Source of the DNA: Candidatus Doudnabacteria bacterium
GTDB taxonomy: Bacteria > Patescibacteriota > Doudnabacteria > UBA920 > O2-02-FULL-48-8
Assembly: GCA_039931165.1 (NCBI GenBank)
Contig: JBDTSL010000004.1
Location: 21,028 to 85,027 of the forward strand
Direction of reading: 5' to 3'
DNA: 64,000 nucleotides
Part shown: in pieces, positions 6,876 through 63,944 of the stretch
Layout: every line of letters begins with the position of its first letter
Position numbering within the stretch: the stretch's first letter is position 1
The notes under the pieces: generated by a model
Database searches by the model: none
Told to the model about the DNA's origin: nothing
What the model saw: the letters and a program-made list of their open reading frames with translations, nothing else
Program-made: the position numbers and the translations under genes

Positions 6876-7553
6876 ATGATCAAATTCGACCAGGTAACAA
6901 AAACATACAACAAAGTCACAGCGATCAAGGATCTGACTTTGGAGATCCATAAAGGTGAGTTCATTTCGCTGGTTGGGCAGTCGGGCGCCGGCAAATCAAC
7001 TTTGATCTCAATGATCATCGGGGAAGAGCGGCCGGACTCGGGCCGGATATTGATCGACGACATAGACGTTTCCCAGATCCGCCGTACCGATATCCCGTAC
7101 CTGCGCCGCAAGATCGGGGTTGTTTTTCAGGATATCAAATTGCTGCCCAGGCGCACCGCCTTTGAAAATGTCGCGTTCGCGCTTGAGGTATCGGGCGAAA
7201 GCCACGCTCATATAAAAAAAGAAGTGCCGAAGATTTTGGAATTGGTCGGACTGGCAGACAAGACCAAAGCTTTCCCAAACGAAATGTCCGGAGGAGAGAA
7301 GCAACGAGTGGCGATCGCCAGAGCTCTTTCACATAATCCCGTTCTGCTCCTGGCTGACGAGCCTACCGGAAATCTGGATTCTATCAACGGTTGGGATATT
7401 ATTCAGTTGCTGCTGAAGATCAATAAAGCCGGAACCACAGTAATTCTGGCCACTCATGCTAAAGACATGGTCAATAGCGTGAAGAAACGCGTCATCACCA
7501 TAGAAAAAGGCCAAATTGTCTATGACCAAGAAAAGGGAAAATATGTATTATAA
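6876..7553 (+). CDS. ftsE: cell division ATP-binding protein FtsE
   Basis: Walker [10 protein letters not shown] and ABC signature LSGGEKQR; 225 aa, followed by ftsX. Confidence 0.9.
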
Positions 7554-7633
7554 GTATAAAGGGACAAATATAAAGTATAATGGGATGTTTGCCCGCCCTG
7601 TTCCCTTAATACTTTATACTTAATACTATTTAT

Positions 7634-8551
7634 ATGAGCTCTACTAACGCCAAAAGACTGATTGGTTCCGGATTCACCAATTTTTTCCGGAACATCTGGA
7701 TCTCGATCGCCGCCACATCCATGGTTGCCATCACTTTGTTCATTATTTCCACTATCCTAGTTTTTTATACGCTCACGGTTTTGGCGGTCCAAAATTCCAC
7801 GGACAAGGTTGGAGTAGTAACTGCTTATTTCAAGGACACTGCCACTGACAAGGAGATCGAAAGCACGCGCGCCGATATCCTGTCTTTGCCCGGAGTAAAG
7901 TCCGTGGATTACACTTCTAAAGCTCATGCCGAGGAATTATTCAAGCAGCGGCACGCGAACGAGCCGGCATTACTTGAAACTCTTACCGAATTCAGCGCTA
8001 CCGACGGCCCGATCCCGGCTTCGGTCGCTGTGCGGGCGGACAACCTTTCGGATTATCCGCATATTTACTCGACGCTGACCTCGGACAGGTACTCCGCCTT
8101 CTTCCAGACTGTCCGGGATAATCAAAAAATCATCGACAAGCTTCACCGTATTATTATTTTTATTACGAGATTTGGATTGATACTTGCCGGTATTTTCATC
8201 ATTGTCACTATCATGGTGACGTTTAATACCATCAGATTGACGATTTACAATAGGCGCGAGGAAGTGGAGATCATGCGCCTTGTGGGTGCCACTAACTGGT
8301 ACATCCGCTGGCCTTTTCTGATTGAAGGCATCATGTACGCGCTGTTCGCGACCACATTCGTCACTATCATGGTTTTGATCTTGCTCTATATGCTTTCCGG
8401 CAAGATCGAACAATTTCTGTCGATCGCGGCCCTGGGAACTACCTTATTCCAGGCAATCTTCTGGAAAATTTTGGCGGTAAACCTGGTCGCCAGCATCGTA
8501 CTGTGCGTCATCGCCTCCAGTATTGCTATGCGCAAGTATCTGCGAATTTAA
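7634..8551 (+). CDS. ftsX: cell division permease FtsX
   Basis: 305 aa with four hydrophobic helices and a large extracytoplasmic loop, downstream of ftsE. Confidence 0.85.
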   Translation: MSSTNAKRLIGSGFTNFFRNIWISIAATSMVAITLFIISTILVFYTLTVLAVQNSTDKVGVVTAYFKDTATDKEIESTRADILSLPGVKSVDYTSKAHAEELFKQRHANEPALLETLTEFSATDGPIPASVAVRADNLSDYPHIYSTLTSDRYSAFFQTVRDNQKIIDKLHRIIIFITRFGLILAGIFIIVTIMVTFNTIRLTIYNRREEVEIMRLVGATNWYIRWPFLIEGIMYALFATTFVTIMVLILLYMLSGKIEQFLSIAALGTTLFQAIFWKILAVNLVASIVLCVIASSIAMRKYLRI

Positions 8552-8638
8552 ATTCGCAGATACTTGTATATAGTATTCAGTATTCAGAGGTGAGTATCAT
8601 CCCTTTATACTTTATACTAAATACTGTATACTTTTTCT

Positions 8639-9082
8639 ATGAAAGTGATTCTAACTAAGGATGTTTCGGGGCTGGGACGGGCTGGCGATGTCAAAGAAGT
8701 TTCTGACGGACATGCCAGAAATTTTTTGTTGCCGAAACATCTGGTTCTGCCGGCCACTATTTCAGCTTTGGGGAGGGTTCAAAAAGAAGAATCGGAACGC
8801 CAAGACAAAGTAAAAAAGCATGAAGAAAAATTACTTGCCGCCAAAAGCAAACTGGAAAACAAAACGTTCATCGTAAAAGGCAAGGCCGAAAAACAGCACT
8901 TGTTTGCGGCAATTCACGAAAACCAGATTGTCGCCGCCATCAACGAAAAGCTGAATTTGGACATTGAGTCTAACCAAATAGTGCTCGAGAAACCAATTAA
9001 AAGTCTTGGTTTGCATGAATTTCATGTCCGTCTTGGCGAAAAACAATTGATTAAGGTAAAATTGGATGTTGAAGCGGTGTAG
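8639..9082 (+). CDS. rplI: 50S ribosomal protein L9
   Basis: MKVILTKDVSGLGRAGDVKEVSDGHARNFLLP is the canonical L9 N-terminus. Confidence 0.9.
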   Translation: MKVILTKDVSGLGRAGDVKEVSDGHARNFLLPKHLVLPATISALGRVQKEESERQDKVKKHEEKLLAAKSKLENKTFIVKGKAEKQHLFAAIHENQIVAAINEKLNLDIESNQIVLEKPIKSLGLHEFHVRLGEKQLIKVKLDVEAV

Positions 9083-13093: not shown

Positions 13094-13130
13094 TGGCAAA
13101 TAAAAACCGCTCCAGAGCGGTTTTATTTTA
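13094..13130. terminator. rho-independent terminator hairpin
   Basis: aaaaaccgctccagagcggtttt flanked by A/T runs, downstream of rpmA on the minus strand. Confidence 0.5.
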
Positions 13131-13136
13131 AAAAAA

Positions 13137-13418
13137 TTATTTTCCAGACAATACATGCACGAATCGTCTTTGGTGCAAGTTGCCGTCAAATCCGCGGACT
13201 TTTTTGGCGGTGAATTTCACTGTGCCGATCCCGACGGAATAAAGAGTGTCGTCAGAGCCCTTGCGCACATTTTTACCCGGGTGCCACTTGGTGCCGCGCT
13301 GACGGACCAGAATCGTTCCTAGTTTGGCGGTTTGACCGCCGAAAAGTTTAATTCCCAGTCTTTTGGATTGCGAATCGCGCCCTAGGGCTGTAGATCCGCC
13401 TGCTTTTTTATGAGCCAT
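13137..13418 (-). CDS. rpmA: 50S ribosomal protein L27
   Basis: [29 protein letters not shown] is the canonical L27 sequence. Confidence 0.9.
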
Positions 13419-13473
13419 AAATCGTGTAACGAGGAGCGTAGAGCCAGTAACGTTATACGTTACGCGTTATACG

Positions 13474-14811
13474 CTATACGAGTTCCTCACCGGATTCTGT
13501 CTCCAACGCATTTGCGTCTTCTACTACAGTTTCCTGTTTAGTTTCTTCTCCATATTTAACAACAAATATTTCTCTTGCGACAACTTGATCCTTGCGGTCA
13601 TAGATGACGGACTTGCGAGGAGTTACCCGTAAAAATTTATATTTGACCGATAAATATTCAGGTAAAGGATCTAGAATAGTGTAGCCATTTTCGGTGATGA
13701 AGTCAAGGTCGGGCATAAACGCATAATCCGACATACTGACTTTATAAGCGGGGAAGGACACAACAACTTTTGAGCCCGGAGCAAGAAATTTTTTGAACTC
13801 CTTGAAAACCTGGTCGTAGAGTTTGGACAAGGTTTTGAAATTTGAGGTCATTTCGGGCTTTTTTGGAATCTTGGAGTATAGCGGGCCAAGCGTGCCTTCG
13901 GTAACCACAGCCGCGATTTTATATTTGGGTAATTGAATTGAGATTTCGGCGGCGTTGGACCGGAAAAGCTTGTAACGCCCCAGCGCGACATGATAGCGGT
14001 TGCGGAACCATTCCAGATTTTTCTCACTGTTTTCGACCATTTTCTGCTCAATGTCCGAACCAATAGCTCGATATCCCATGAGAACTGACTCCTGCAGGAT
14101 TGTGCCGGAGCCGCAGAAAGGGTCCAAAATATAGTCCATAGGTTTCAAGGGTCCGGCAAGATTGATCATGGTCTGGGCTACTTTTGGCGGGATCATCCCT
14201 ATCTTTTCGTCGCGGGCAGGTCTCTGATAATCTCTTCTTCCGTAATCTTCGTAGTTTTGGACCGATAAAGTTTTACCGACGAACAATCTTTGGTTGCCGG
14301 CGATGATCACAACCTCCGCGCCTTTAGCGAGCAGTTGGTTCTCGGTCACTTGGACGGATGAAAGCGCTTGAGATGGGAATTGAGGCAGCACGGCGCGTAT
14401 GCTTTGGGACTGATCCTGGATGATTTTTTTTATCAGGAAGGCGATTCGCGGAGCTTCTTCATAAAACTTAATGGTAGGATCAAGCGAATAAATGGATACG
14501 CCGAACTGTTTTTTGCCCGAGTATTCGTGAAAGTATTCTTTTATTCTTTTGAAAGTAAAGTAGCCGGCCAAAACCTGCGACGGGAATTCTTTTCCCTTCT
14601 TTTGAAAAGTATCGAATAAGCGTATAATTTTAATGGTGCCGCCGAGACGGGCCTGAAGCGATTCGGTATTCAATGCTTTGTCCGCCTCGATCACCACAAC
14701 CTCGGGTGAGCAGGCCATGACTTTGTAGGCCACTTCCAGTGAAGTCAGGACCGCAAGCAGCTCGGCCAAAGACAGCGTGTAAACCCTCCCTAAAATAAAC
14801 GCGTATTGCAT
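13474..14811 (-). CDS. THUMP-domain class I SAM-dependent RNA (m2G-type) methyltransferase, Trm11/RlmL-like
   Basis: PPKVAQTMINLAG ... LDPFCGSGTIL motif I, characteristic of the THUMP-associated N2-guanine RNA methylase family; 445 aa. Confidence 0.55.
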   Translation of the reverse strand: MQYAFILGRVYTLSLAELLAVLTSLEVAYKVMACSPEVVVIEADKALNTESLQARLGGTIKIIRLFDTFQKKGKEFPSQVLAGYFTFKRIKEYFHEYSGKKQFGVSIYSLDPTIKFYEEAPRIAFLIKKIIQDQSQSIRAVLPQFPSQALSSVQVTENQLLAKGAEVVIIAGNQRLFVGKTLSVQNYEDYGRRDYQRPARDEKIGMIPPKVAQTMINLAGPLKPMDYILDPFCGSGTILQESVLMGYRAIGSDIEQKMVENSEKNLEWFRNRYHVALGRYKLFRSNAAEISIQLPKYKIAAVVTEGTLGPLYSKIPKKPEMTSNFKTLSKLYDQVFKEFKKFLAPGSKVVVSFPAYKVSMSDYAFMPDLDFITENGYTILDPLPEYLSVKYKFLRVTPRKSVIYDRKDQVVAREIFVVKYGEETKQETVVEDANALETESGEELV

Positions 14812-14852
14812 ATAACGTATAATGTATAACGTGTAACCTATAACCGTTAACT

Positions 14853-17338: not shown

Positions 17339-17389
17339 ACCTTATACGACAACACTTTTTTAAGCCCTATTTGTGTTGTCGTATAAGGT
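17339..17389. repeat. perfect 17-bp inverted repeat (stem) with 17-nt loop in a 300-bp noncoding region
   Basis: accttatacgacaacac / gtgttgtcgtataaggt; no ORF of 60 aa or more on either strand across 17228-17530. Confidence 0.6.
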
Positions 17390-25787: not shown

Positions 25788-26372
25788 TTACCAGCCGGAT
25801 GCTCCGGCGGAAAATCTTGCAAAGGTGCAGCTTCTCGATGCCGGATCCCACATCGGATCCGTTTGAGGAATCGAACATATGCTCTCTACGGTGATATGGG
25901 CTAAAATTTTAAAGTCGATGCCATCTGAACGGTATAAATAACATTTGTCGGTGTCCATTGGTTTCGGATCGAGAGGCAAAATTCCAACATAAGTTGGAGC
26001 TAAGTTGGGTATCCAGCCGTTGGCTCCGGTGACACCGTGGCTTCCGTAGGTTGTACAATTTCCCCACCATGTGCCTGCCGTAGTTGGATAAGCGTTATTG
26101 GCGTCATAATAAACCGCCAAAGCCGTCGAGAGCTGAGTGAGATCGGCCCGCCTCCTAGCGTCTCTTGATTTGGCCCTGGCAGAACCTAAAGCCACCAAAA
26201 CAATCGAAGCCAAAAGCCCGATGATGGAGATGACCACCAAAAGTTCGATCAAAGTGAATCCTAATTTATTTTTATTTAACTTTGCCACAAATAATCCGCT
26301 TTTTAACTTACCAATCGACAGATGCCGATGAGGAATATCTGGCAAAAACACAGCCTGGTCTGGCTGGATCAT
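25788..26372 (-). CDS. type IV pilin-like protein (paralogue)
   Basis: KLNKNKLG|[21 protein letters not shown]; the C-terminal region is about 75% identical to 9586-10104. The real start is probably a GTG about 26282 ([10 protein letters not shown] leader) rather than the ATG at 26372. Confidence 0.65.
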
Positions 26373-26832
26373 ATAAAGGATCAGTGGTAGGGACAGGACA
26401 ATTTTCTACAGTCAGATATGCCAAAATTTTATAATCCGTACCATTTGACTGATATAAGTAACATTTACCAGTATTCGGCGGTATCGCATCTCCTGGTAAC
26501 TGTCCAATGTAGGTTGGGGCCAAATTCGGGATCCACCCACTTGCACCGGTTGTCCCGTGAGCGCCATAACCTATACAATTTCCCCACCAAGAACCTGAAG
26601 TTGTGGGATAAGCATTGTTGGCATCATAATAAACAGCCAAGGCCGAAGAGGCCTGATCAATATCAGAACGCCTCTTGGCGTCCCGCGCTTTGGCCCTAGC
26701 GGAATTTAAAGCAACCAAAACTATCGAAGCCAAAAGCCCGATGACTGAGATGACCACCAAAAGTTCGATCAAAGTGAACCCGGCCTGAAAATTTTTTTTA
26801 TTCATGCATCCCTGACGCACAAATTTGATCAT
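26308..26832 (-). CDS. type IV pilin-like protein (paralogue)
   Basis: MNKKNFQAG|[21 protein letters not shown], then RRSDIDQ...[13 protein letters not shown]...[15 protein letters not shown], conserved with the other two paralogues. The likely start is the internal Met at about 26805. Confidence 0.65.
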
Positions 26833-29384: not shown

Positions 29385-31109
29385 CTAAGGCGCGTTGAGT
29401 ATCGGGTCCGGCACCAGCCACTGGCAGCTGGTCTTGTCTTTTTTTATCCGCGAAATGTCCAGCTGTATGTCCGCTTGATGACTATCTATTAAAGATCGGA
29501 CAATACTTTGGATTTGCGCTGAAGTAAAGCTGCTCAAATCAAACTCTACCATTGAATAATCCGTCAGCTCGAATCTGTGGGTTTCGACATCAGGAGAAGG
29601 CGCAGTTTTGTTGATGACAAAAAACATTCTGGAATATTTTTGCTTGATAGCGTTTGGGTCAAACCCGAAATTCATTTCCAACAAAGTTTTCGATTCCGTG
29701 CCGGTCAGGAATAGCGGGTAGTACCTAAACCAGCAGTCGCTGTCAGAGACTCTGACGATGATCAGGTCATTCGTGGTTAAACCCAAAGCACGCATTTCTT
29801 CGGCTGTCCGATAAAATTTCTCGTGTTCGGATTGATAAATATAAGCTTGCGCGCGGCGAGATTTAAAAGCCTGGTCAAATCTCACGGATTCGTAGCCAGT
29901 AACCAATAAAGCGATCGATAAGGCTAGAACATATATGTAGCGGAAGTCTTCAGACTTCCATAATTTTCGAAACCTAAACGTTTCCGCTACTTGGCGCACA
30001 CAAATTGTCAGGGCGTATAAAATAAAAAACAAGCTCAGCAAATAACTTTGATAAATGAAATTCGGCACTTTCGATGTGACCAAGGAAATAGCCAAGAGGT
30101 TCCAGACAAACCAGCCGCCGGACAAACCAAGCAGTATTTTATCTTTCCTCTCACCTTTATACTTTATGCTTAATACTATTCCAAGCGTTATCCCTGCATA
30201 ATATACCCATGTCCAACGAAAAAGATATCTTTGCGGCAAATAGTCGGACAGATACCAATGCCAGGGCCTGGCCCATCCCTCCAGCTGCCTGAAATGGGTA
30301 AAAGAAACAAATATTTCACTTTTAAACGTCTGAGGGGAACTGAAGAATAAAGGCAGAAGACAAACCAGAAGCAAAAAAAGAAAAAACAGAACGGATGCCG
30401 ACACTTTTTTGTTTATTGTTCGGTGATCCCAAATAAGCAAGCCAAAAAAAGTTGCGGCCGGTATCGCGCCCAGCAAATTTTTCGCCATGACCGGCAAAGC
30501 CACGACCAAACCGATAAGAGCAAACTTCCAAATAGGATAGTTTAATCGCAGCTCTTGATCTTTTTCCAAATACCAAAGATTGGCTAAGAATCCAAACACA
30601 ACCGTAAAAGCCAAAACAATATCGGAAGCGCCAAAGGCGTAACCTGAGATCAGTTCATGGGTGAAAGGAGTGTTCAGCCAGAAGATCGCGGCTATTGTAG
30701 CAGCGAGTGCGGCCGATAAATTTTGACGGAATCTATAAATACCGCAAATAAACAGTAAACCTGCCGGACAAAGGACAAAGGCATATGACAGCCTTTTGAC
30801 CTCAATACTGACCTGGCCGTCGAGATTAAAAAATAGATATGGCACATAAGCAAAAAGTGGCGGGATATGCTGCCAGTAAGGCCCCTCCATCCAATTCCCC
30901 TCCTGATCTACGAGCGGATTGACGCGAACCATAGGCGGAAAAAGTTTCCTCGTCAGGTTCGCTGCCACCACGGAATTCGACGATTCGTCATGCGCCAGAA
31001 GGTCTTTTTTGAATATCCAAGGAAAATCCGATTTTGTATTGAACAAAAACAAAGTCGTGAAGATCAGGCAGAGTATGGCAACAATAATTTGATTCTGATA
31101 TTTTCTCAT
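29385..31109 (-). CDS. polytopic membrane protein, probable GT-C fold glycosyltransferase (PMT/ArnT-like)
   Basis: 574 aa, at least 10 TM helices, DE dipeptide in the first extracytoplasmic loop (LLAHDESSN), and a C-terminal soluble domain. Confidence 0.4.
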   Translation of the reverse strand: MRKYQNQIIVAILCLIFTTLFLFNTKSDFPWIFKKDLLAHDESSNSVVAANLTRKLFPPMVRVNPLVDQEGNWMEGPYWQHIPPLFAYVPYLFFNLDGQVSIEVKRLSYAFVLCPAGLLFICGIYRFRQNLSAALAATIAAIFWLNTPFTHELISGYAFGASDIVLAFTVVFGFLANLWYLEKDQELRLNYPIWKFALIGLVVALPVMAKNLLGAIPAATFFGLLIWDHRTINKKVSASVLFFLFLLLVCLLPLFFSSPQTFKSEIFVSFTHFRQLEGWARPWHWYLSDYLPQRYLFRWTWVYYAGITLGIVLSIKYKGERKDKILLGLSGGWFVWNLLAISLVTSKVPNFIYQSYLLSLFFILYALTICVRQVAETFRFRKLWKSEDFRYIYVLALSIALLVTGYESVRFDQAFKSRRAQAYIYQSEHEKFYRTAEEMRALGLTTNDLIIVRVSDSDCWFRYYPLFLTGTESKTLLEMNFGFDPNAIKQKYSRMFFVINKTAPSPDVETHRFELTDYSMVEFDLSSFTSAQIQSIVRSLIDSHQADIQLDISRIKKDKTSCQWLVPDPILNAP

Positions 31110-35601: not shown

Positions 35602-36036
35602 CTAATTTTTAGCCTGAGCCAGGGCTGAAGCCAAAGTTTGCCTGTAAGCCAGACTTGATTGCGTTGCCCCAGAAACGATGTTCACATTCGCGCTCTGGAC
35701 TTGGATTGCCTCCTGCTTCATGATCGGCATTGCCTGAGTATTGATTTGAATAGAGGTGCGGCGATCGTTGGGATATTGCAGAAATATAATATCGGTTATT
35801 TTACCGCCTGAAATTACGGCATTAACCTGAAAAGGTCCATAAAAAGCATCGGCAACCATACCCATATACTGTCCGTCCTTATATAGAGCCTTGGTCTGCG
35901 GAGTCGGATAAACTGGAGTTTGATCCGTAGGCGTTGTGGTAACGGTATTGTTGGTACTTTTTAAAATGCTTCTCTCGTAAGCGACATAAACAACAAATGC
36001 CAGCACAACTGTCAGCGACAAAAGGAATTTTTTCAT
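35602..36036 (-). CDS. FMN-binding domain protein (extracytoplasmic, flavinylation target candidate)
   Basis: Signal/TM at the N-terminus; FMN_bind-like C-terminus with ..IVSGATQSSLAY (S/T-G-A-T flavinylation motif). Confidence 0.6.
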   Translation of the reverse strand: MKKFLLSLTVVLAFVVYVAYERSILKSTNNTVTTTPTDQTPVYPTPQTKALYKDGQYMGMVADAFYGPFQVNAVISGGKITDIIFLQYPNDRRTSIQINTQAMPIMKQEAIQVQSANVNIVSGATQSSLAYRQTLASALAQAKN

Positions 36037-36129: not shown

Positions 36130-36780
36130 ATGAATACTAAATCAATTTTGCTGGCTGGGCTGGGAATAATTGTTATCATCGCGGTGGGATTTGTTTTTTC
36201 ACGCCCTCGGATCCCTAAAACCCTGATTCTGGCAGTTCCATTTACCGCTCAAGCGCCGACCAATAACTGGTCTCGCAACGAGGACTGCGAAGAAACAAGC
36301 GTCGCTATGGCCACAGCTTACCTTAACGGCCAATCCGGGGACATGATGTCTGCGGGGGATGCCCAGAATGCCATAAATCAGCTTAAAAATTGGGAGAATA
36401 TCAACACCGGCTACAATGCCAATACCGGCGCTGATGCCACCACAAAAATGGCCGAAGGTGCGTTCAAACTGAAAGTGACACAGATCAAGGACTTTACCGA
36501 ACTCGATCTGAAGTCGGCGCTGGCGAAGCATCATCCGGTGCTCCTGCCTATCAATGCCAAATTGCTTGCCAACACTTACAAGGACAACGGCCCGACTTAT
36601 CACATGATAGTGGTCCGAGGCTTCGACGAGCGCGGCTTCATCATCAATGACCCGGGTACGAATTCCGGAGACGGGAATGTCTATACATTTGAAACTTTAA
36701 AAAATGCTTCAGCCAATTGGAATCAAACGACAGGCTCAATGGAATCGGCAAATAAGATCGCTTTAATATTGTCTAAATAA
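36130..36780 (+). CDS. membrane-anchored papain-fold (peptidase C39-like) domain protein, paralogue of 16475-17227
   Basis: VPFTAQAPTNNWSRNEDCEETSVAMATAYL and HMIVVRGFDERGFIINDPG mirror the motifs of the other copy. Confidence 0.5.
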   Translation: MNTKSILLAGLGIIVIIAVGFVFSRPRIPKTLILAVPFTAQAPTNNWSRNEDCEETSVAMATAYLNGQSGDMMSAGDAQNAINQLKNWENINTGYNANTGADATTKMAEGAFKLKVTQIKDFTELDLKSALAKHHPVLLPINAKLLANTYKDNGPTYHMIVVRGFDERGFIINDPGTNSGDGNVYTFETLKNASANWNQTTGSMESANKIALILSK

Positions 36781-41992: not shown

Positions 41993-43831
41993 TCAATCGA
42001 ATTGGATTTTATCGCCGGGTTTGAGCGTTCCCTGCTTTTGTTCCGGTTCGGCGGGTTTGGTTTCTTCGGTTTTGATTACCGGGGGCGCCGGTTGAATCCG
42101 CGGCTGCTGTTCGGGTACTTGCTTTTTTGAAGCATCTTTACCGAGCGAAAGTGCCAGAGAACTGCTTAAATCCTCCAGAGCCGAAGTGGCTTTCCCAACT
42201 CTCTCGGTAATCTTTTCCGCCGCCAGCTTATTCACAGTTTCCCAAACCGGGTTTTGCGCGGGTTTTTTATCCGCCATTCTTCTGCCCGAATTATTTTCCG
42301 ACTGCTGTGCCGGCCTCCGTTCGGGTCTCCTGGTTTCCTGTCTGCGCGGCTGTTCAGACTGGCTGATCCTGGGGGCAGAAGGCACCGGCCTTTCAGAACG
42401 AGTAGCCGGAGCCGGAAGCGCTTGGTTGACTTGGACAGGAGGAGAAATAACCGCCGGACGGTCCTGGTAGCGTAAACTTTCTTGCAGCTCTTCTTGCTCA
42501 ACAGCGCCGCTCTCTGACGCAGCGGCTTGAGCGTGAAATTCCGAACCCATCCACTTGTTGATCTTCTCTTCCACTCCTTCCCGTTTGTTCGCATAGCGTT
42601 CCCTGGAAATACTGACAACTTTTTCTTCGTTGCCGGTGATCTCCGCGATTGGCGGCAGAGTTGTCGCAGAAAAAGGTGTCGATGAAACTCCGTTGATCAT
42701 CAGCTTCAAATAAACGTGATATTTGGTCAGATTGACCAGATCGTTCAGCAGATACGTCGGGTCGAATTCCTTTTCCAAAAATTCGGCGTCGTCAGCCCCG
42801 GTGCGGAAGCAAATCAATGTTCCGACGTTGCCGAAGATCGCATCCCTGACAACAGTATTTTTTTTATCCGTGACCAGCTGGCCGATGTACTGATGGGCCA
42901 CGATCAAATTCAGCCGGTATTTCCGGGCTTCGGACAGAATGTTTGCGAAAGATTCGGTGGCAAAGTTCTGGAACTCGTCCACATACAGATAAAAATCCTC
43001 CCGTTCTTCCTCAGGAATATCCACGCGGCTCATGGCCGCAAGCTGTAGCTTGGTAATGATCATGGCGCCCAGCAAAGCCGAATTGTCCTCGCCGATCCTG
43101 CCTTTCGACAGGTTGATCAGGAAAATTTTCTTGTTATCCATGATCTCCCGCAGATCAATGGAGCTTTTCGTTTGGCCCACAATGTTGCGGATAATGGCGG
43201 ATGATAAAAATTGCCCGACCTTGTTTTGAATAGGCGCGATGGCCTCGTTTCGGAATTTGTCGTTGTAATTGGCGAACTCATCCACCCAAAACGATTTGAC
43301 CACGGGATCTTTGATATTATCCACAATCCTTTTCCGATAGGTTTTGTTGACCAGCATCCGAGCGATTCCGAGCAAAGTATTGCCTGGCGAATCAAGCAGG
43401 GCCAGAATCGTGTTGTTCAGAATATACTCCATTCGCGCCGACCAGACTCCGGCCCAGATCTTCGTGAACACGCCCATCAGTCCTGATGCCACCAAATGTT
43501 TATATTTCGGGTCTACTGATTCCAAAGGGTTAAAAGCAATGGGAAAATCGCTGTCCGCGGGATTCAGATAGACTACGTCATTAACCCGGTTGGACGGGAT
43601 GTAGTTGAGGATCTTTTCCACGGAGTCGCCATGCGGATCTACAAAAGCAACCCCATGCCCATCCTGAATGTCCTGGATGACCATATTTTCGATGAGGGTG
43701 GTTTTGCCCATCCCGGTTTTGCCGATGATATACATGTGGCGCCTGCGGTCATCCCGGCGGATACCGAAAGACACATCCCGGTTCCGGAAATTGGTTTTTG
43801 CGAACAGTGTTATGTCATTATCAGAGGCCAT
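41993..43831 (-). CDS. FtsK/HerA-superfamily P-loop ATPase, TraD/VirD4 (type IV coupling protein)-like, lacking an N-terminal TM domain and carrying a Q/P/R/E-rich disordered C-terminal tail
   Basis: Walker A IIGKTGMGKTTL, DPHGD, Walker B FYLYVDEFQNF, and RKYRLNLIVAHQYIGQL (TraG/TrwB-like R..Q..QL region). The last approx. 170 aa are low complexity. Confidence 0.5.
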   Translation of the reverse strand: MASDNDITLFAKTNFRNRDVSFGIRRDDRRRHMYIIGKTGMGKTTLIENMVIQDIQDGHGVAFVDPHGDSVEKILNYIPSNRVNDVVYLNPADSDFPIAFNPLESVDPKYKHLVASGLMGVFTKIWAGVWSARMEYILNNTILALLDSPGNTLLGIARMLVNKTYRKRIVDNIKDPVVKSFWVDEFANYNDKFRNEAIAPIQNKVGQFLSSAIIRNIVGQTKSSIDLREIMDNKKIFLINLSKGRIGEDNSALLGAMIITKLQLAAMSRVDIPEEEREDFYLYVDEFQNFATESFANILSEARKYRLNLIVAHQYIGQLVTDKKNTVVRDAIFGNVGTLICFRTGADDAEFLEKEFDPTYLLNDLVNLTKYHVYLKLMINGVSSTPFSATTLPPIAEITGNEEKVVSISRERYANKREGVEEKINKWMGSEFHAQAAASESGAVEQEELQESLRYQDRPAVISPPVQVNQALPAPATRSERPVPSAPRISQSEQPRRQETRRPERRPAQQSENNSGRRMADKKPAQNPVWETVNKLAAEKITERVGKATSALEDLSSSLALSLGKDASKKQVPEQQPRIQPAPPVIKTEETKPAEPEQKQGTLKPGDKIQFD

Positions 43832-43880
43832 AGAATTTAGAATTTAGAATATAGAATATAGAATATAGAATATAGAATAT
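43832..43880. repeat. heptanucleotide tandem repeat (TAGAATT)x2-(TAGAATA)x5 immediately 5' of the ATPase start codon
   Basis: tagaatttagaatttagaatatagaatatagaatatagaatatagaatata on the plus strand (ATTCTA-type units on the coding strand). Confidence 0.8.
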
Positions 43881-43918
43881 AAAATTTAGAATAAAGTCCA
43901 AATTCCAAATTCCATATT

Positions 43919-45244
43919 CTACCTAATCGGCAGATCCATCGGCGGCGCCGATTTGACTGTCTGAACTCTCTCCAGCTGCGAAATCCTGGTATGCGGGACC
44001 TGCGGGAAGTGAAAAATACTCGCCAGCTCTTCGGTGTTCATGATGACCTTGCCTACGCCCTGCCAACTGCTGCGCGTTAAAATCCAATGCAGTATGTGCC
44101 GCCTGCGTTTCAACTTTTGATTTTCAATATATGGCCGCTCCAGCCTTTCGGAAATATGAAACGAAGGGCCTTCGGTCCAGCTGTGGCCTATATCGGGCTT
44201 CATGCCGTTGAGGTTAACATCATCAAAATTGCGGAAAGCTCCGACAATTTCCGGGATCCTCAAAGATTTGTTGATTTTTCCTTTGGGCGCCAGATAAAAA
44301 GTTCTGATACGGACTTCGTATCCGATTTTTGAAGCAGCATGTTCAATGGCGTTTATCGCCAGCTTTTCATTATCGGTTTTGTGAAGCATCAGGCTCGGCG
44401 GTTCTTCCTGCACTCGGGATGCTGGCGCATGCTCTTCAGCAGGCCCGGCAACAATGCCGACCAAAATTTTGGCGATCAGGTCAGGGACAAAATGAACAAT
44501 TTTCAGTAGCCAGTCATCCCCGTGCTTTTCCGGCACACCTTTCAGCTTTTCCACAAGATGTTTAGTGTGATTTTTCCAGGAATCATCAATGGGCTTGATG
44601 ACCAGCTGGAATAACAGCAATTCGTAAGGCTGGATATTACTCATGACCTCTATGACATTTGAAAGCGGATCGATAAATGTTTCCTGGGCGCCGTGCTCAT
44701 AAGACGAATCCTGCAGATATGTCCGGATCGGGTAAGCATTATCCTTCTTTTTCAGCCACTCCGTGCCCCAAAATTCAAAGTCCGCGTGTTCCGGATCATA
44801 ATGATGGGGCAGATTGCGCAGATAATCCTCGATTTCGCGGATCTCAGCCTTGGCGTATTGGGCAAACACCGCGCTTTCCAATAAATTCCGGAAACGGGTA
44901 GGAATTCTGAAAATATAAGAAACTTTGCCGCCCAGGCTGACAATTTCGCACGAAACAGATAAAACGGTTTTTCCGGACAACTGCTCGCCCCAGCTGTAGT
45001 TTGTATGTATCGCGTGCAGCGCCGCGAAGATCTGCTCCATAGCCAGCGGCGACTTTTCGTTCAGCTCATCGATCTTCACTTCCAAAAGAACCCATTCGAT
45101 CGAATTAGCGTACTTAATGCGGTTCGCGTCCCGCTTCAACCACCAGAGCATCCAGACCAGAAACACCAAAAAAACGGTCCACCCATACCCGCTGATCAAA
45201 ACAATGTCAACCAAATAATGAAAATAATCGCTAAGAAACGACAT
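43919..45244 (-). CDS. membrane-anchored hypothetical protein (441 aa)
   Basis: N-terminal hydrophobic helix (VDIVLISGYGWTVFLVFLVWMLWWL); contains GEQLSGKT (GxxxxGKT-like). Stop and start overlap the flanking genes. Confidence 0.35.
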   Translation of the reverse strand: MSFLSDYFHYLVDIVLISGYGWTVFLVFLVWMLWWLKRDANRIKYANSIEWVLLEVKIDELNEKSPLAMEQIFAALHAIHTNYSWGEQLSGKTVLSVSCEIVSLGGKVSYIFRIPTRFRNLLESAVFAQYAKAEIREIEDYLRNLPHHYDPEHADFEFWGTEWLKKKDNAYPIRTYLQDSSYEHGAQETFIDPLSNVIEVMSNIQPYELLLFQLVIKPIDDSWKNHTKHLVEKLKGVPEKHGDDWLLKIVHFVPDLIAKILVGIVAGPAEEHAPASRVQEEPPSLMLHKTDNEKLAINAIEHAASKIGYEVRIRTFYLAPKGKINKSLRIPEIVGAFRNFDDVNLNGMKPDIGHSWTEGPSFHISERLERPYIENQKLKRRRHILHWILTRSSWQGVGKVIMNTEELASIFHFPQVPHTRISQLERVQTVKSAPPMDLPIR

Positions 45245-59137: not shown

Positions 59138-60514
59138 TTATTCTACCAGTTTCCTGGCCAACAAATCAATATCTCCGGCGCCCATCATAAGTACAGCGTC
59201 GAAATCCTTTATTTTATCCCTGATCAGCGTTTCTGCTTCGTCTAAATTTTGCGCAAAAGTTGCTTTCACATTTCGCAGGACAAGCTCACGGGCCAGATCA
59301 TTGGAACTGATCTGCTCTCCGTGCTCGCGCCCGGCCACGTCAAATATCTCCGGTAATATAACTTCATCGGCTATGAGCAGCGATTCGATAAATTCCCCGA
59401 ATAAAGACTTGGTTCTGTTTCTGTGATGGGGTTGAAATACGACCAGGATTTTCTTATCGGGATAAAACTGCTTTGCGGCTTCGATCGTGGCAGTCACACC
59501 AGCGGGATGATGGGCATAATCGGAAATTACAACTTTTCCGTCCAGCCTGCCGACAATTTCAAACCTGCGCCAAATGCCGGCATAATTTTCCAAAGTTTGC
59601 GCGATTGAAGCGGGTTCAACAGAAAGCTTGAGTCCAGCTAAAATCGCTCCCAAAGCGTTTGAAACATTAAATAAGCCGGGTACTTGCAACTGAAAAGTTC
59701 CGATTTTTTCGTCATTTAGATGCAAATCAAAAGTTTGACTGCCCCCTGCGCCCTGCCCCCTGACCCCTAAATTTAAAGCCTGCAAATCCGCGTAATGGCG
59801 GATTCCAAATGTAAACTTGTGACAGGTCGCGTGCTTGCCTACATCAACGGCATTATGGTCATCGGCGTTATAAATCAGAATTCCGTCTGAGGGCAACGAT
59901 TTAATGTATTCGGAAAAAGCCCGTTTGATGTCTGACAAATCCTTATAGTAGTCCAGGTGATCTTCCGCGACGTTGGTCAAAACGATCATCTTCGGCTTGT
60001 TCTCCAGCATTTTTCGGGCGTATTCATCAGACTCGGCGACGAAAAACCGCCCCAAGCCCATGCGGGCATTGGCTTTAAATTTATCGCTTTCATTTTTGGG
60101 TGAAAGCAATGAGCCGATCAGCACCGTGGGGTCCAAGCCGGCATTTTCCAAGATCTTTCCCAAAATCGCGGAAGTTGTGGACTTGCCGTTGGTTCCGGTC
60201 ACTCCAATGCCGTATTTATCTTCCATGAGCCGACCCAAGGCCTGACCCTGGCTCAGTTTGGCAATGTTTATCTTATCAAGTTCTTCCGCCGGCACGGCGG
60301 GGGTATAAATCACCAGATCAGGACTGCCTTCCACAATGTTAGAACCGAAGGAAATTTTAATCCCAAGTTTAACCAGGTCCCGGGTAATTTCCGATTCTTT
60401 CAGATCCGATCCGGAAACATTTTTTCCCATTGCAAAAAGCAGACGCGCAAGTCCTGAAACACCAATCCCGCCTATTCCCAGACAGTAAATATTTTTTGCT
60501 TCTTTGATCGTCAT
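59138..60514 (-). CDS. murC: UDP-N-acetylmuramate--L-alanine ligase
   Basis: IYCLGIGGIGVSGLARLL...GSDL N-terminus and Mur ligase central domain GTNGKSTT. Confidence 0.9.
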   Translation of the reverse strand: MTIKEAKNIYCLGIGGIGVSGLARLLFAMGKNVSGSDLKESEITRDLVKLGIKISFGSNIVEGSPDLVIYTPAVPAEELDKINIAKLSQGQALGRLMEDKYGIGVTGTNGKSTTSAILGKILENAGLDPTVLIGSLLSPKNESDKFKANARMGLGRFFVAESDEYARKMLENKPKMIVLTNVAEDHLDYYKDLSDIKRAFSEYIKSLPSDGILIYNADDHNAVDVGKHATCHKFTFGIRHYADLQALNLGVRGQGAGGSQTFDLHLNDEKIGTFQLQVPGLFNVSNALGAILAGLKLSVEPASIAQTLENYAGIWRRFEIVGRLDGKVVISDYAHHPAGVTATIEAAKQFYPDKKILVVFQPHHRNRTKSLFGEFIESLLIADEVILPEIFDVAGREHGEQISSNDLARELVLRNVKATFAQNLDEAETLIRDKIKDFDAVLMMGAGDIDLLARKLVE

Positions 60515-62825: not shown

Positions 62826-63944
62826 CTATAACCTATCACCTATAACCTCATTATAAAGCTTAATAGTCTGCTCTGCAGCTTCTTTCCAGCTGAAATGCCT
62901 GGACCTGCTCAACGCCAAATTAGCCAGTTCTTCCAGCCGCTGCGGGTTTTGTAAAAGCCGGTAAAGCACATCCGCCATGTTTGATAAATTTTCAGGGTCA
63001 AAATATTCCGCGCCCTGGCCCATGATCTCGCGAAGAGTAGGGATATCGGAACAGGCAACAGGGATGCCGCAGGCAGCCGCTTCAAGCGCTATCAAGCCAA
63101 ATCCTTCAATTAAGGAAGGTAAAACAAACAAAGTCGCCCCGTTATAAAGTTGATTTAAATCGGCATCGCTGACTCTTCCCAAGACCTTTACTCGTGATTT
63201 GTTTTTGATGCCCAAGACCTTTTCGGCGATGTCCGGATATGACGGATCAGACGCCCCAACCAAGACCAGCTCCAGGTCCATGCCTTTGGTGATAAGTATA
63301 TCAAATGCAAGGGAGAGCTGAGGCAAATTTTTATACCGGCGCCAAACACCTACGTTTAGTATATATGGCTTGCTGAACCCAAATTTATTGGACATGGCCT
63401 TATAGGCCTCCTGCTTATCAAGCATATGGTATCCCTGGCTGATTCCTTCATAGACCACGTTAATTTTATCTGCAGGAATTGGAAAATGCTCAAGAATGGA
63501 TTTTTTAGTGGCGTTGGAGACAGCGATTATTTTTTTGGAACGCCGGATCGCATTCCGCAAAATTAAGTTGTAAGCGATCCTGTGAAAAAAATGGGACTTT
63601 TTCCTGCCCGGAAACAGAGTATGCGTTAAATCGTGAATAGTCACAACAAACGGCCGGCGATAAAACAACGGCACGTTGAAATGCGGAAAATGAACCAAAT
63701 CAAGTTTTTCTCTTTTTAAAATTCCTGGAAATTTTAATTGTTCGGCAAATGAATAGTGCGGTATATCGGCAATCACAATTTTTTGGTTGTATTGTTTATA
63801 ATTCGCGGATTTATCGATGTCACGAAAAAATAAAATATATTGATTGGTTTTATCTTGCTTCAAAATCTCATGACTAAGATCGGTAATATACCGGTCTATC
63901 CCCGACCCCCCGCCGATCATGCGCAAATCCACACCTATTTTCAT
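62826..63944 (-). CDS. family 4 (GT-B) glycosyltransferase
   Basis: Two-domain GT-B architecture with C-terminal E-x7-E-like region (IEGFGLIALEAAACGIPV). Confidence 0.7.
   Translation of the reverse strand: MKIGVDLRMIGGGSGIDRYITDLSHEILKQDKTNQYILFFRDIDKSANYKQYNQKIVIADIPHYSFAEQLKFPGILKREKLDLVHFPHFNVPLFYRRPFVVTIHDLTHTLFPGRKKSHFFHRIAYNLILRNAIRRSKKIIAVSNATKKSILEHFPIPADKINVVYEGISQGYHMLDKQEAYKAMSNKFGFSKPYILNVGVWRRYKNLPQLSLAFDILITKGMDLELVLVGASDPSYPDIAEKVLGIKNKSRVKVLGRVSDADLNQLYNGATLFVLPSLIEGFGLIALEAAACGIPVACSDIPTLREIMGQGAEYFDPENLSNMADVLYRLLQNPQRLEELANLALSRSRHFSWKEAAEQTIKLYNEVIGDRL

What the first reader, a model, noticed from the sequence alone, without database searches (positions are those of the whole stretch)
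7553..7633. Recurring ATACT-rich approx. 28-nt motif in intergenic regions (and once inside a CDS) forming long imperfect hairpins
The motif TCCCTT(T/A)ATACTTTATACT(T/A)AATACT occurs upstream of ftsX (7596-7630, with inverted copies at 7557-7590 that can pair with it). It occurs again upstream of rplI (8600-8637, again with an inverted partner GTATATAGTATTCAGTAT at 8566-8583). It also lies within the coding sequence of the 574-aa membrane protein (about 30148-30178, CACCTTTATACTTTATGCTTAATACTATTCC). The ftsX stop is also embedded in a perfect 17+17-bp palindrome (caagtatctgcgaattt|aaattcgcagatacttg, 8533-8566). This looks like a family of small repeated structured elements (regulatory protein-binding sites, REP/MITE-like units or attenuators), not chance AT-richness.
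Basis: seen in the sequence. Interest (0 to 1): 0.5.

Follow-up and report, generated by a model that had tools for sequence, protein, structure and literature searches.

The report
Heptamer repeat arrays upstream of genes
The "ATACT motif" is a tandem array of a 7-base, promoter-box-like unit (NNATACT), usually preceded by an inverted copy, inserted between tightly packed genes of a Candidatus Doudnabacteria genome. It most likely supplies the -10 promoter box for leaderless ftsX and rplI messages, and it belongs to a widespread but functionally untested class of heptanucleotide repeats.

Summary
The sequence facts hold. TCCCTT(W)ATACTTTATACT(W)AATACT lies 6 nt before the ftsX and rplI start codons. 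A look-alike sits at 30152-30177, and a perfect 17+17 palindrome spans the ftsX stop. None is expected by chance.

The motif is a period-7 tandem repeat, (NNATACT)3-4. It is one of about six AT-rich heptamer arrays in the window, which use different units.

Ten related Doudnabacteria have a 7-nt ftsX-rplI spacer. In these, TATAAT overlaps the ftsX stop codon exactly at -12..-7 of rplI. The window and two relatives instead carry a 73-87-nt insert, [AGTATNN]n-loop-[NNATACT]4. This insert puts TATACT at the same -12..-7 offset, and the old hexamer has decayed.

Best reading (confidence 0.5): the last heptamer is the -10 box of a leaderless-type promoter, and the inverted arm forms an insulating hairpin.

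The copy inside the coding sequence is ancestral coding DNA, not an insertion. REP/MITE and attenuator readings are poorly supported.

In-register NNATACT arrays occur in many CPR and Bacteroidota genomes. The closest described relatives are the TAACTGA heptamer repeats of Beggiatoaceae. No transcript data exist, so function is inferred.

The parts
6876..7553 (+). ftsE (ABC ATPase), the gene upstream of the first spacer
   Evidence: Pfam ABC_tran, E = 8e-39. In most relatives its stop overlaps the ftsX start as ATGA.
7547..7585 (-). Two inverted partial copies of the motif. Read on the - strand they are TCCCTTTATACTTATA and TCCCATTATACTTTATATTT.
   Evidence: Sequence. Inverted-repeat arm 7566-7585 against 7602-7621 is 85% complementary. 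The - strand carries the promoter-like match TTTATA-16-TATAAT at 7574..7547, 10 of 12.
7602..7627 (+). Direct array: TCCCT followed by TAATACT, TTATACT, TAATACT. AATACT lies at -12..-7 of the ftsX ATG, followed by ATTTAT and then the ATG at 7634.
   Evidence: TRF period 7, 3.3 copies. No Shine-Dalgarno sequence. Relatives have an ATGA overlap or 6-24-nt spacers here.
7634..8551 (+). ftsX
   Evidence: Pfam FtsX and FtsX_ECD. 100% identical to a Candidatus Doudnabacteria MAG protein.
8533..8566 (.). Perfect 17+17 palindrome. Its left arm is the last ftsX codons plus the TAA stop. Its right arm is window-specific.
   Evidence: It is absent from L127, L129 and all other relatives.
8566..8599 (+). 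Inverted arm of the rplI element: GTATAT followed by AGTATTC, AGTATTC, AGAGGTG, AGTATCA
   Evidence: The hairpin 8566-8631 has MFE -20.7 kcal/mol and z = -4.4.
8600..8638 (+). Direct array: TCCCT followed by TTATACT, TTATACT, AAATACT, GTATACT and TTTTCT. TATACT lies at -12..-7 of the rplI ATG (8639), with a -35-like TTTATA (8604-8609) 17 bp upstream.
   Evidence: L129 shares 24 of 24 nt (CCTTTATACTTTATACTAAATACT), and L127 and L129 share the TATACT-N6-ATG arrangement.
8639..9082 (+). rplI (ribosomal protein L9)
   Evidence: Pfam Ribosomal_L9_N and Ribosomal_L9_C.
30147..30180 (+). Look-alike on the antisense strand of the 574-aa membrane-protein gene (29385..31109, - strand). It is coding DNA for the peptide GIVLSIKYKGER, not an inserted element.
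   Evidence: Alignment A1 shows no insertion at this site. Homologue DNA encodes the same peptide with similar codons. It is 29 of 34 nt identical to the ftsX copy.
13450..13480 (-). Sister array with another unit (CGTATAA on the - strand), upstream of an L27-like ORF
   Evidence: TRF and sequence. The same junction in relative L005 is 5 nt.
14811..14844 (+). Sister array (ATAACGT, 4.9 copies) between the divergent starts of the methyltransferase gene and gene 14853
43830..43919 (-). Sister palindromic array. On the - strand it reads [GGAATTT]3 then [ATTCTAT/ATTCTAA]9, abutting the ATG of a T4SS coupling-protein-like gene.
   Evidence: Hairpin z = -5.2. The same unit type fills the ftsX-rplI spacer of L139.
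62826..62848 (-). Sister array (GTTATAG, about 3 copies, on the - strand) just upstream of murG

Best explanation
The motif is a tandem array of a 7-bp unit, NNATACT, whose core TATACT is a sigma-70 -10-like hexamer.

In this Doudnabacteria lineage an insert of about 75-90 nt, [inverted units]-loop-[direct units], has been placed between genes that were ancestrally overlapping or 7 nt apart. The last direct unit sits so that its hexamer occupies -12..-7 relative to the A of the start codon. RNA polymerase would then start at or next to the ATG and make a leaderless (or 1-2-nt-leader) mRNA with no Shine-Dalgarno sequence. With four or more units, the 7-bp periodicity also places a -35-like TTTATA 17 bp upstream.

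The inverted arm pairs with the proximal direct units. In the window the extra perfect palindrome adds a second hairpin. These hairpins would lie at the 3' end of the upstream transcript, where they probably terminate or insulate read-through.

The arrays probably arise by 7-nt replication slippage of the -10 region plus fold-back (inverted) duplication. They are then homogenised between nearby sites.

Shown here: the anatomy, the insertion status, the offset conservation and the hairpin statistics. Inferred: promoter use, leaderless translation, terminator function and the mutational origin.
For: 1. Period-7 structure, intergenic position and no Shine-Dalgarno sequence.
2. In 10 relatives with a 7-nt ftsX-rplI spacer, TATAAT overlaps the ftsX stop as (A/G)TA-TAA-T and lies exactly at -12..-7 of rplI. 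In the window, L127 and L129 the array puts TATACT at the same offset. There the stop-overlapping hexamer has decayed to TTTAAA, TGTAAA or TATAAA.
3. Across Doudnabacteria gene starts, -10-like hexamers peak sharply 6 nt before the start codon. The counts are 15 of 157 annotated genes, and 15 against a mean of 2.9 per position in 235 ORFs. Examples outside the arrays include TATAAT-N6-ATG at 36130 and 36036(-).
4. The promoter scan calls TTTATA-17-TATACT at 8604-8632.
5. The array is far more conserved than its flanks: 24 of 24 plus 6 of 6 nt between the window and L129, whose FtsX is only 77% identical.
6. In 125 NNATACT arrays from other genomes, the distance from the last ATACT to the next long-ORF start peaks at 5-7 nt. 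Inverted copies lie upstream in 21 cases and downstream in 2, so the direct units always face the gene.
7. Hairpins are significant in the window (z = -4.4), L127 (-5.7) and L129 (-2.9). In L127 and L129 they leave the last TATACT unpaired.
Against: - There are no transcript data.
- The ftsX array offers only AATACT (4 of 6) with no -35-like hexamer, and its hairpin is not better than shuffles.
- Distances in other genomes spread over 5-7 nt rather than a strict 6.
- Bacteroidota are not expected to use a TATAAT-type -10 (my own knowledge), yet they carry the same arrays with a broader distance distribution.
- Other arrays in the window (TATAACG, ATTCTAT) do not place a good -10 exactly at -12..-7.
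- A promoter needs one unit, so the tandem repetition itself is not explained by promoter function.
- The TAACTGA repeats in the same kind of position in Beggiatoaceae are not -10-like (PMC4679880).
Confidence: 0.5

Rival explanations
1. The array is a Shine-Dalgarno-independent translation-initiation element within a polycistronic mRNA. The A/U-rich, unstructured direct repeats just 5' of the ATG serve as a ribosome or S1 landing pad, or as binding sites for an RNA-binding protein. This is the model proposed for TAACTGA repeats.
For: - The position is immediately upstream of start codons that lack a Shine-Dalgarno sequence.
- The window shows low Shine-Dalgarno usage: 13 of 67 genes by a loose pattern.
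- The hairpin leaves the last units single-stranded in L127, L129 and at 43.8 kb.
- The same arrays occur in Bacteroidota, a phylum that does not rely on Shine-Dalgarno sequences (my own knowledge), and in CPR.
- The MacGregor 2015 proposal (PMC4679880).
Against: - It does not explain why the array reproduces the exact -12..-7 offset of the ancestral TATAAT.
- It does not explain why that TATAAT, including the synonymous NTA codon choice and the T after TAA, is kept only where it lies 6 nt from the ATG.
- The unit is not complementary to the 16S 3' end (my own reasoning, not computed).
Confidence: 0.2
2. The main function is RNA structure. The inverted and direct arms, plus the 17+17 palindrome, form intercistronic hairpins. 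These would act as intrinsic terminators, as 3'-end stabilisers, or as RNase III processing sites that separate the ftsEX and rplI messages.
For: - The rplI-spacer hairpin (z = -4.4) is followed by UUUUUCU in the window, and by UUUUUCC in L127.
- The palindrome region gives z = -7.2.
- Hairpin potential is kept in three genomes and in elements with other units: L139, L134 and window 43.8 kb.
- RNase III is among the RNases retained in CPR (PMC12641178).
Against: - Only 21 of 125 arrays have an inverted partner.
- The ftsE-ftsX spacer hairpin is not significant.
- The stems are A/U-rich and the simple terminator scan calls none.
- The pairing register differs between genomes and no compensatory changes were seen.
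- This reading is compatible with, rather than an alternative to, the promoter reading.
Confidence: 0.1
3. The arrays are functionally neutral by-products of a mutational bias: 7-nt polymerase slippage plus fold-back template switching. They are tolerated only where they do no harm.
For: - Heptanucleotide repeats are the most abundant long SSR class in prokaryotes and have been ascribed to slippage (Mrazek 2007, as summarised in PMC4679880).
- Different units occur at different sites.
- Presence is patchy among close relatives.
- The right arm of the 17+17 palindrome is a de novo inverted copy of the gene end.
Against: - The array shows 30 of 31 nt conservation between genomes whose FtsX is 77% identical.
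- The orientation is polar, with 21 inverted copies upstream against 2 downstream.
- The offset to the start codon is fixed.
- rplI lost both its ancestral -10 and its tight junction, so something in the insert must now drive its expression.
Confidence: 0.12
4. It is a REP/MITE-like mobile element, or a set of operator sites for one DNA-binding regulator, spread to several loci.
For: - The architecture is an imperfect palindrome.
- Copies within one genome share genome-specific variants: the TCCCTT prefix in both window copies, CTGGATACT in both L127 spacers, and AGATACT units in L007, L056 and L108.
- The copy inside the coding sequence is 29 of 34 nt identical to the ftsX copy.
- A true MITE-like element (CCCGTTAGAAATA inverted repeats with an ATGA(A) duplication) occupies the same spacers in other Doudnabacteria.
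Against: - Only two intergenic copies occur in 64 kb, and they are 1 kb apart.
- No target-site duplication was seen by eye at the insert boundaries.
- The arms are built of short tandem units of variable number rather than a fixed sequence.
- The copy in the coding sequence is ancestral coding DNA.
- No transposase or RAYT association was looked for.
Confidence: 0.08

Closest known systems
TAACTGA heptamer direct repeats of marine Beggiatoaceae, some Cyanobacteria and Bacteroidetes (MacGregor 2015, PMC4679880)
   Same: Both are tandem heptanucleotide repeats of 2-6 copies. Both are mostly intergenic, in forward orientation, within a few nucleotides of start codons that lack a Shine-Dalgarno sequence, including ribosomal-protein genes. 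In both cases close relatives have shorter spacers without the repeats, and function is unknown.
   Different: The unit here is NNATACT, which is -10-like, while TAACTGA is not. An inverted array is frequently present upstream here, whereas BOGUAY has 169 direct sets and a single indirect one. The hosts here are CPR. Here an ancestral TATAAT at the same offset supports a promoter role.
Long simple sequence repeats with 7-nt units (Mrazek et al. 2007, as cited in PMC4679880) and cyanobacterial STRR heptamer repeats (Mazel et al. 1990, my own knowledge)
   Same: Period-7 tandem repeats enriched in non-coding DNA, thought to arise by polymerase slippage.
   Different: Those classes are defined only by periodicity. 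They are usually longer arrays with no fixed relation to start codons and no palindromic pairing.
Leaderless-gene promoters (-10 box about 6-7 nt upstream of the start codon), as mapped in Mycobacterium (PMC3898074, PMC4633059)
   Same: A TANNNT hexamer ends 6 nt before the ATG/GTG, there is no Shine-Dalgarno sequence, and the genes are housekeeping genes.
   Different: The classical cases have a single -10 box. Here the box is the last unit of a tandem array with an inverted partner. The leaderless status in CPR is inferred only from sequence.
7-bp repeats in the hmw1A/hmw2A promoter region of Haemophilus influenzae (PMC8262952, PMC12721329)
   Same: Heptanucleotide repeats lie between the promoter and the start codon and affect expression. 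RNA structure and RNase III are involved.
   Different: Those are long, perfect, hypermutable arrays that drive phase variation of adhesins. The arrays here are short (3-4 units), imperfect (80-87% matches) and conserved between species.
REP/BIME and MITE-type intergenic palindromes (my own knowledge)
   Same: Imperfect palindromes in intergenic spacers within operons, with possible terminator or stabiliser roles.
   Different: REP and MITE elements are high-copy, of fixed sequence, and linked to RAYT or a transposase. Here the copy number is low, the unit number varies and no target duplication was seen.

Membership tests
Heptanucleotide direct repeats upstream of start codons (TAACTGA-type, MacGregor 2015) | Head-to-tail repeats with a 7-nt period, at least 2 copies | tested here: met
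   TRF period 7: 3.3 copies at 7605-7627, 4.6 copies at 8603-8634.
Heptanucleotide direct repeats upstream of start codons (TAACTGA-type, MacGregor 2015) | Intergenic, forward orientation, within a few nucleotides of a start codon, no canonical ribosome-binding site | tested here: met
   6 nt to the ftsX and rplI ATGs, with no Shine-Dalgarno sequence. Arrays from other genomes peak at 5-7 nt.
Heptanucleotide direct repeats upstream of start codons (TAACTGA-type, MacGregor 2015) | The same unit recurring at many loci of one genome (169 sets in BOGUAY) | tested here: inconclusive
   Only 2 intergenic NNATACT arrays occur in the 64-kb window. The rest of the source MAG could not be scanned.
Leaderless-type sigma-70 promoter | A -10 hexamer (TANNNT) ending about 6 nt before the start codon, with no Shine-Dalgarno sequence | tested here: met
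   TATACT-N6-ATG for rplI and AATACT-N6-ATG for ftsX. The ancestral TATAAT lies at the same offset in 10 relatives. A clade-wide peak at 6 nt is seen.
Leaderless-type sigma-70 promoter | Transcription starts at the A of the ATG, and the 5'-triphosphate AUG mRNA is translated | not testable with these tools
   This needs TSS mapping or ribosome profiling.
REP / MITE-like mobile palindromes | Many dispersed, near-identical copies | tested here: not met
   The window holds 3 matches, one of which is ancestral coding DNA. Other arrays use other units.
REP / MITE-like mobile palindromes | Terminal inverted repeats flanked by a target-site duplication | tested here: not met
   Inverted arms are present. 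No duplication was seen by eye at the insert boundaries when compared with empty sites. By contrast, the CCCGTTAGAAATA element of relatives does show an ATGA(A) duplication.
REP / MITE-like mobile palindromes | Association with a RAYT or transposase in the genome | not tested
   Only 9 window proteins were scanned against Pfam.
Intrinsic terminator / attenuator | A G+C-rich stem followed by a U-tract. For an attenuator, also alternative structures or a leader peptide. | tested here: not met
   The consensus scan calls no terminator in either spacer. The stems are A/U-rich. A U5 run follows the hairpin only in the window and L127. No alternative-structure logic was found.
Phase-variable SSR (contingency locus) | A long, pure repeat tract with copy-number polymorphism between strains | tested here: inconclusive
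   The ATACT arrays are short and imperfect (80-87% matches). They have 4 units in all three species. No strain-level data were available. The 9-copy array at 43830-43893 is a better candidate.
Known RNA families (Rfam 15) | A match at or near a family's gathering score | tested here: not met
   At gathering thresholds the window yields only tRNA-Gln. The permissive scan of 7450-8750 gives only sub-threshold hits to miRNA precursors and other unrelated families.

The most novel reading that the evidence does not exclude
NNATACT-type palindromic heptamer arrays may be a distinct, self-propagating class of cis-element shared by CPR bacteria and Bacteroidota. In this reading, a -10-derived heptamer is amplified by a period-7-specific slippage and fold-back process and is copied between loci, including exchange with the antisense strand of a coding sequence. 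The result would be portable terminator-plus-leaderless-promoter cassettes that rewire operons in ultra-compact genomes. A dedicated heptamer-binding factor might also be involved.
Probability: 0.15. Interest if true: 0.75.

Novelty: new variant of a known kind. Interest (0 to 1): 0.5.

Why it matters
Gene expression signals in CPR/Patescibacteria are almost unstudied. Three points give this finding value if the inference holds.

1. **A testable case of leaderless transcription.** The rplI promoter box appears to be embedded in the stop codon of ftsX and to be conserved across a candidate phylum.

2. **An operon junction remodelled in evolution.** A repeat array seems to have taken over the role of that promoter box. 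This gives the puzzling heptanucleotide repeats, seen upstream of start codons in several phyla, a concrete mechanistic hypothesis.

3. **Practical use for annotation.** The signature helps start-codon and operon annotation in CPR metagenome-assembled genomes.

Tried and rejected
- **Source contig look-up.** Exact-protein look-up of the source contig failed twice. A genome-wide count in the source MAG was therefore impossible.

- **Raw hit count in the GTDB scan.** This count is not evidence by itself. My own estimate of chance matches runs from about 17 at 50% GC to about 140 at 40% GC. What counts is that 111 of 128 hits extend in register to at least 4 units, and that they cluster in CPR and Bacteroidota, with only two Firmicutes-type records.

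- **Long hairpin in the ftsE-ftsX spacer as an RNA structure.** Rejected as unsupported (z = -0.5 on the + strand and -1.5 on the - strand).

- **Copy at 30152 as an element inserted in frame.** Rejected. There is no indel relative to 13 homologues and the peptide is conserved.

- **Rfam.** Nothing was found.

- **Literature.** Full-text search for the repeat sequences themselves found no relevant paper. Searches for leaderless genes in CPR gave nothing specific.

- **Covariation in the three-genome hairpin alignment.** No compensatory pairs were found, and three sequences are too few to decide.

- **Single gain versus repeated gain.** The FtsX tree interleaves array-bearing and empty genomes. 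This was left unresolved.
Full report
**The observation**

The window comes from a Candidatus Doudnabacteria (CPR/Patescibacteria) metagenome-assembled genome. Its FtsX is 100% identical to an NCBI MAG protein on a 91-kb contig.

The motif TCCCTTWATACTTTATACTWAATACT matches exactly at 7602-7627 and 8600-8625, and with three mismatches at 30152-30177. Dinucleotide shuffles expect none. A 19-mer derived from the two intergenic copies alone still recovers the third copy at one mismatch, again with 0.00 expected.

The inverted partners are real:
- Arms 7566-7585 and 7602-7621 are 85% complementary.
- The arm 8566-8599 pairs with 8605-8631.
- The perfect 17+17 palindrome at 8533-8566 spans the ftsX stop codon.

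The two hairpins are not equally convincing. The ftsE-ftsX spacer folds no better than shuffled sequence (z = -0.5). The rplI hairpin, folded without the palindrome, gives z = -4.4.

**What the motif is made of**

It is a tandem repeat with a 7-nt period.
- Before ftsX: TAATACT, TTATACT, TAATACT.
- Before rplI: TTATACT, TTATACT, AAATACT, GTATACT.

The left halves of both spacers carry the reverse complement, AGTATNN units.

The window contains further AT-rich heptamer arrays built from other units, all at gene junctions:
- CGTATAA/ATAACGT on both sides of a methyltransferase gene (13450-13480 and 14811-14844).
- ATTCTAT/GGAATTT abutting the ATG of a T4SS coupling-protein-like gene (43830-43919). 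This one is again palindromic, with hairpin z = -5.2.
- GTTATAG before murG (62826-62848).

Across 255 kb of Doudnabacteria DNA, 11 period-7 and 4 period-14 arrays make up 15 of the 28 tandem repeats found in the 7% of sequence that is non-coding. The other 93% holds 12 period-7 arrays.

**The arrays are insertions**

Gene order prfA-ftsE-ftsX-rplI-pyrG is conserved.
- Most relatives have ftsE and ftsX overlapping as ATGA.
- Most relatives have exactly 7 nt between ftsX and rplI.
- The window has 80 nt and 87 nt at these two junctions.

Two relatives carry the same kind of insert in the ftsX-rplI spacer: [AGTATNN]2-3, a loop, [NNATACT]4, 6 nt, then ATG. These are L127 (FtsX 81% identical) and L129 (77% identical). 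L129 shares 24 of 24 nt (CCTTTATACTTTATACTAAATACT) plus the final TATACT with the window. That is far above the divergence of the flanking genes. L127 also has an array in its ftsE-ftsX spacer.

Other Doudnabacteria fill the same spacer with different palindromic inserts:
- ATTCT-type heptamers in L139.
- ATTCG-type repeats in L140 and L144.
- A CCCGTTAGAAATA-type hairpin element in L134.

On an FtsX tree, the array-bearing genomes (L129, the window, L127) are interleaved with empty-site genomes (L143, L001, L128). Gain and loss are therefore dynamic. I could not decide between one gain with two losses and repeated gains.

**The key comparative result**

In all ten genomes with a 7-nt spacer, the ftsX end reads (A/G)TA-TAA-T. 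The hexamer TATAAT therefore overlaps the stop codon and lies exactly at -12..-7 of the rplI start, followed by 6 nt and then ATG or GTG. This requires a particular synonymous codon (NTA) and a T after the stop codon, neither of which the protein demands.

The three array-bearing genomes put TATACT, the core of the last heptamer, at precisely the same -12..-7 offset. Their stop-overlapping hexamer has decayed to TTTAAA, TGTAAA or TATAAA. Two other insert-bearing genomes have also lost the hexamer (L134, L144).

The signature is not confined to rplI.
- Over 157 annotated Doudnabacteria genes, -10-like hexamers end 6 nt before the start codon in 15 cases, against about 4 at other positions.
- Over 235 ORF starts, the count at 6 nt is 15 against a mean of 2.9 per position. 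Six of those 15 are orthologous rplI sites.
- Window examples include GGGTATAAT-ATTCTT-ATG (gene 35602..36036, - strand) and CTATAAT-TAGAGC-ATG (gene starting at 36130).

Only 13 of 67 window genes show even a loose Shine-Dalgarno match. A -10 box 6 nt before the start codon is the classical sequence signature of leaderless genes. This is established knowledge, and it has been mapped experimentally in mycobacteria (PMC3898074, PMC4633059).

**Mechanism proposed**

The last heptamer would act as the -10 element of a promoter that starts transcription at or next to the ATG. Because 3 x 7 = 21 bp, an array of at least four units also places TTTATA 17 bp upstream of TATACT. The promoter scan picks this up at 8604-8632.

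The inverted arm pairs with direct units to form a hairpin at the end of the upstream message. In the window that hairpin is followed by UUUUUCU and preceded by the perfect palindrome. In L127 and L129 the hairpin leaves the last TATACT unpaired. I read this as a terminator or insulator followed by a promoter.

The anatomy, offsets, conservation and hairpin statistics are shown. Promoter use, leaderless translation and termination are inferred.

The right arm of the 17+17 palindrome is an inverted copy of the last ftsX codons and is absent from all relatives. This shows that fold-back duplication operates at this locus. Together with 7-nt slippage, it is a plausible origin for the palindromic arrays.

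**Weak points**

- The ftsX array has only AATACT and no -35-like hexamer.
- Other arrays in the window do not put a good -10 at exactly -12..-7.
- A promoter does not need tandem repetition.
- There are no transcript data.

**Distribution**

The raw count is uninformative, because chance matches in AT-rich genomes could be of that order (my estimate). However:
- 111 of 128 hits extend in register to 4-9 units.
- 103 lie outside open reading frames.
- They come overwhelmingly from CPR lineages and Bacteroidota. The CPR lineages include Levyibacteriota, Microgenomates, Roizmanbacteria, Saccharibacteria, Paceibacterota and another Doudnabacteria. There are only two Firmicutes-type records.
- Where a long ORF follows, the gap from the last ATACT to the start codon peaks at 5-7 nt. 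That is 16 of the 53 arrays outside open frames that are followed by a long ORF. The peak is sharpest in the CPR and unclassified small-genome records and broader in Bacteroidota.
- Inverted AGTAT units lie upstream of the direct array in 21 cases and downstream in 2. The direct units therefore always face the gene.
- The genes served are housekeeping ones such as clpP, smc, rplK, rplI and ftsX.

**The copy inside the coding sequence**

The segment 30152-30177 lies on the antisense strand of a 574-aa membrane-protein gene. It encodes GIVLSIKYKGER. Thirteen homologues align through this stretch without an indel, and several keep SIKYK. Homologue DNA uses similar codons. The reverse complement in L125 even reads TCCCTTTTATATTTTATACTTACTACT. 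The segment is therefore ancestral coding sequence, not an inserted element.

Even so, it is 29 of 34 nt identical to the ftsX-upstream copy, including positions outside the heptamer register. Some copying between the two loci, in an unknown direction, seems likely. This remains unexplained.

Arrays within one genome also share genome-specific variants, which points to homogenisation between sites:
- TCCCTT in both window copies.
- CTGGATACT in both L127 spacers.
- AGATACT units in three arrays of one Patescibacteria genome.

**Comparison with known systems**

The closest described relatives are the TAACTGA heptamer direct repeats of marine Beggiatoaceae, Cyanobacteria and a few Bacteroidetes. 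They show the same period, the same position just upstream of start codons lacking a Shine-Dalgarno sequence, the same absence from close relatives, and unknown function (PMC4679880). That paper also summarises Mrazek et al. 2007, who found heptanucleotide units to be the commonest long SSR class and attributed them to polymerase slippage.

The present arrays differ in four ways: the unit, its -10-like core, the frequent inverted partner, and the comparative evidence for a promoter role.

They fail the tests for several other classes:
- REP/MITE: low copy number and no target duplication seen.
- Intrinsic terminator or attenuator.
- Any Rfam family.

A full-text search for the repeat sequences found no prior description.

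**Verdict**

The feature is real and non-random. It is best described as a new variant of the known class of heptanucleotide repeats upstream of start codons. It carries a specific, testable mechanism, a -10 box for leaderless genes plus an insulating hairpin, held at about 0.5 confidence. Interest is moderate.

Noticed in passing
L125 7260-7359; L134 6926 to about 7020; L137 and L138 5905-5998: A MITE-like hairpin element (CCCGTTAGAAATA, about 70 nt of AT-rich DNA, TATTTCTAACGGG) sits exactly at start codons in other Doudnabacteria, with an apparent ATGA(A) duplication on both sides. It occupies the same ftsE-ftsX and ftsX-rplI spacers. It is absent from the window.
   Followed up: partly
L008, L009, L011, L019, L026, L032 (4 copies), L063, L074 (2 copies), L093: Prevotella and Alloprevotella genomes carry a dispersed element of about 37 nt, GCAAGAATGTAATACTTAATACTTTATACTTAATACT. 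In L032 the copies alternate with a TTTCCCAAAGGGAA mini-hairpin. This looks like a separate repeat family built on the same heptamer.
   Followed up: no
window 43830-43919 (- strand): This is the longest and purest heptamer array: 9 copies of ATAGAAT plus 4 of AAATTCC. It is palindromic (hairpin z = -5.2) and directly abuts the ATG of a T4SS coupling-protein-like gene (41993..43831). It is a candidate for copy-number (phase) variation.
   Followed up: partly
window 13450-13480 and 14811-14844: Inverted TATAACG-type heptamer arrays flank the DNA methyltransferase gene (13474..14811, - strand). In relative L005 the same junctions are only about 3-5 nt long. An ORF for ribosomal protein L27, shorter than 100 aa, lies at about 13130-13420 (- strand).
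   Followed up: partly
window 30147-30180 versus 7597-7630: Antisense coding DNA of the 574-aa membrane protein is 29 of 34 nt identical to the ftsX-upstream array. An RNA carrying the array would therefore be complementary to that mRNA. The direction and meaning of the copying are unknown.
   Followed up: partly
ftsX stop codon in L001, L005, L128, L130, L131, L133, L136, L141, L142, L143: A conserved TATAAT is formed by the last ftsX codon, the TAA stop and the following T, exactly 6 nt before rplI. The promoter box appears to be embedded in the upstream gene's stop codon across a candidate phylum.
   Followed up: yes
window 17339-17389: A perfect 17-nt inverted repeat (ACCTTATACGACAACAC / GTGTTGTCGTATAAGGT) with a 17-nt loop lies inside a 303-nt intergenic region that has no Rfam match.
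   Followed up: no
window 52374-52401 and 59739-59768: Period-7 repeats lie inside coding DNA: CAGCGCT x4 (itself palindromic) and CTGCCCC x4.3.
   Followed up: no
window 25885-26184 and 26405-26704: A 300-nt direct repeat at 70% identity, spaced 520 nt apart, indicates tandem paralogous genes (ORFs 25788..26372 and 26308..26832).
   Followed up: no
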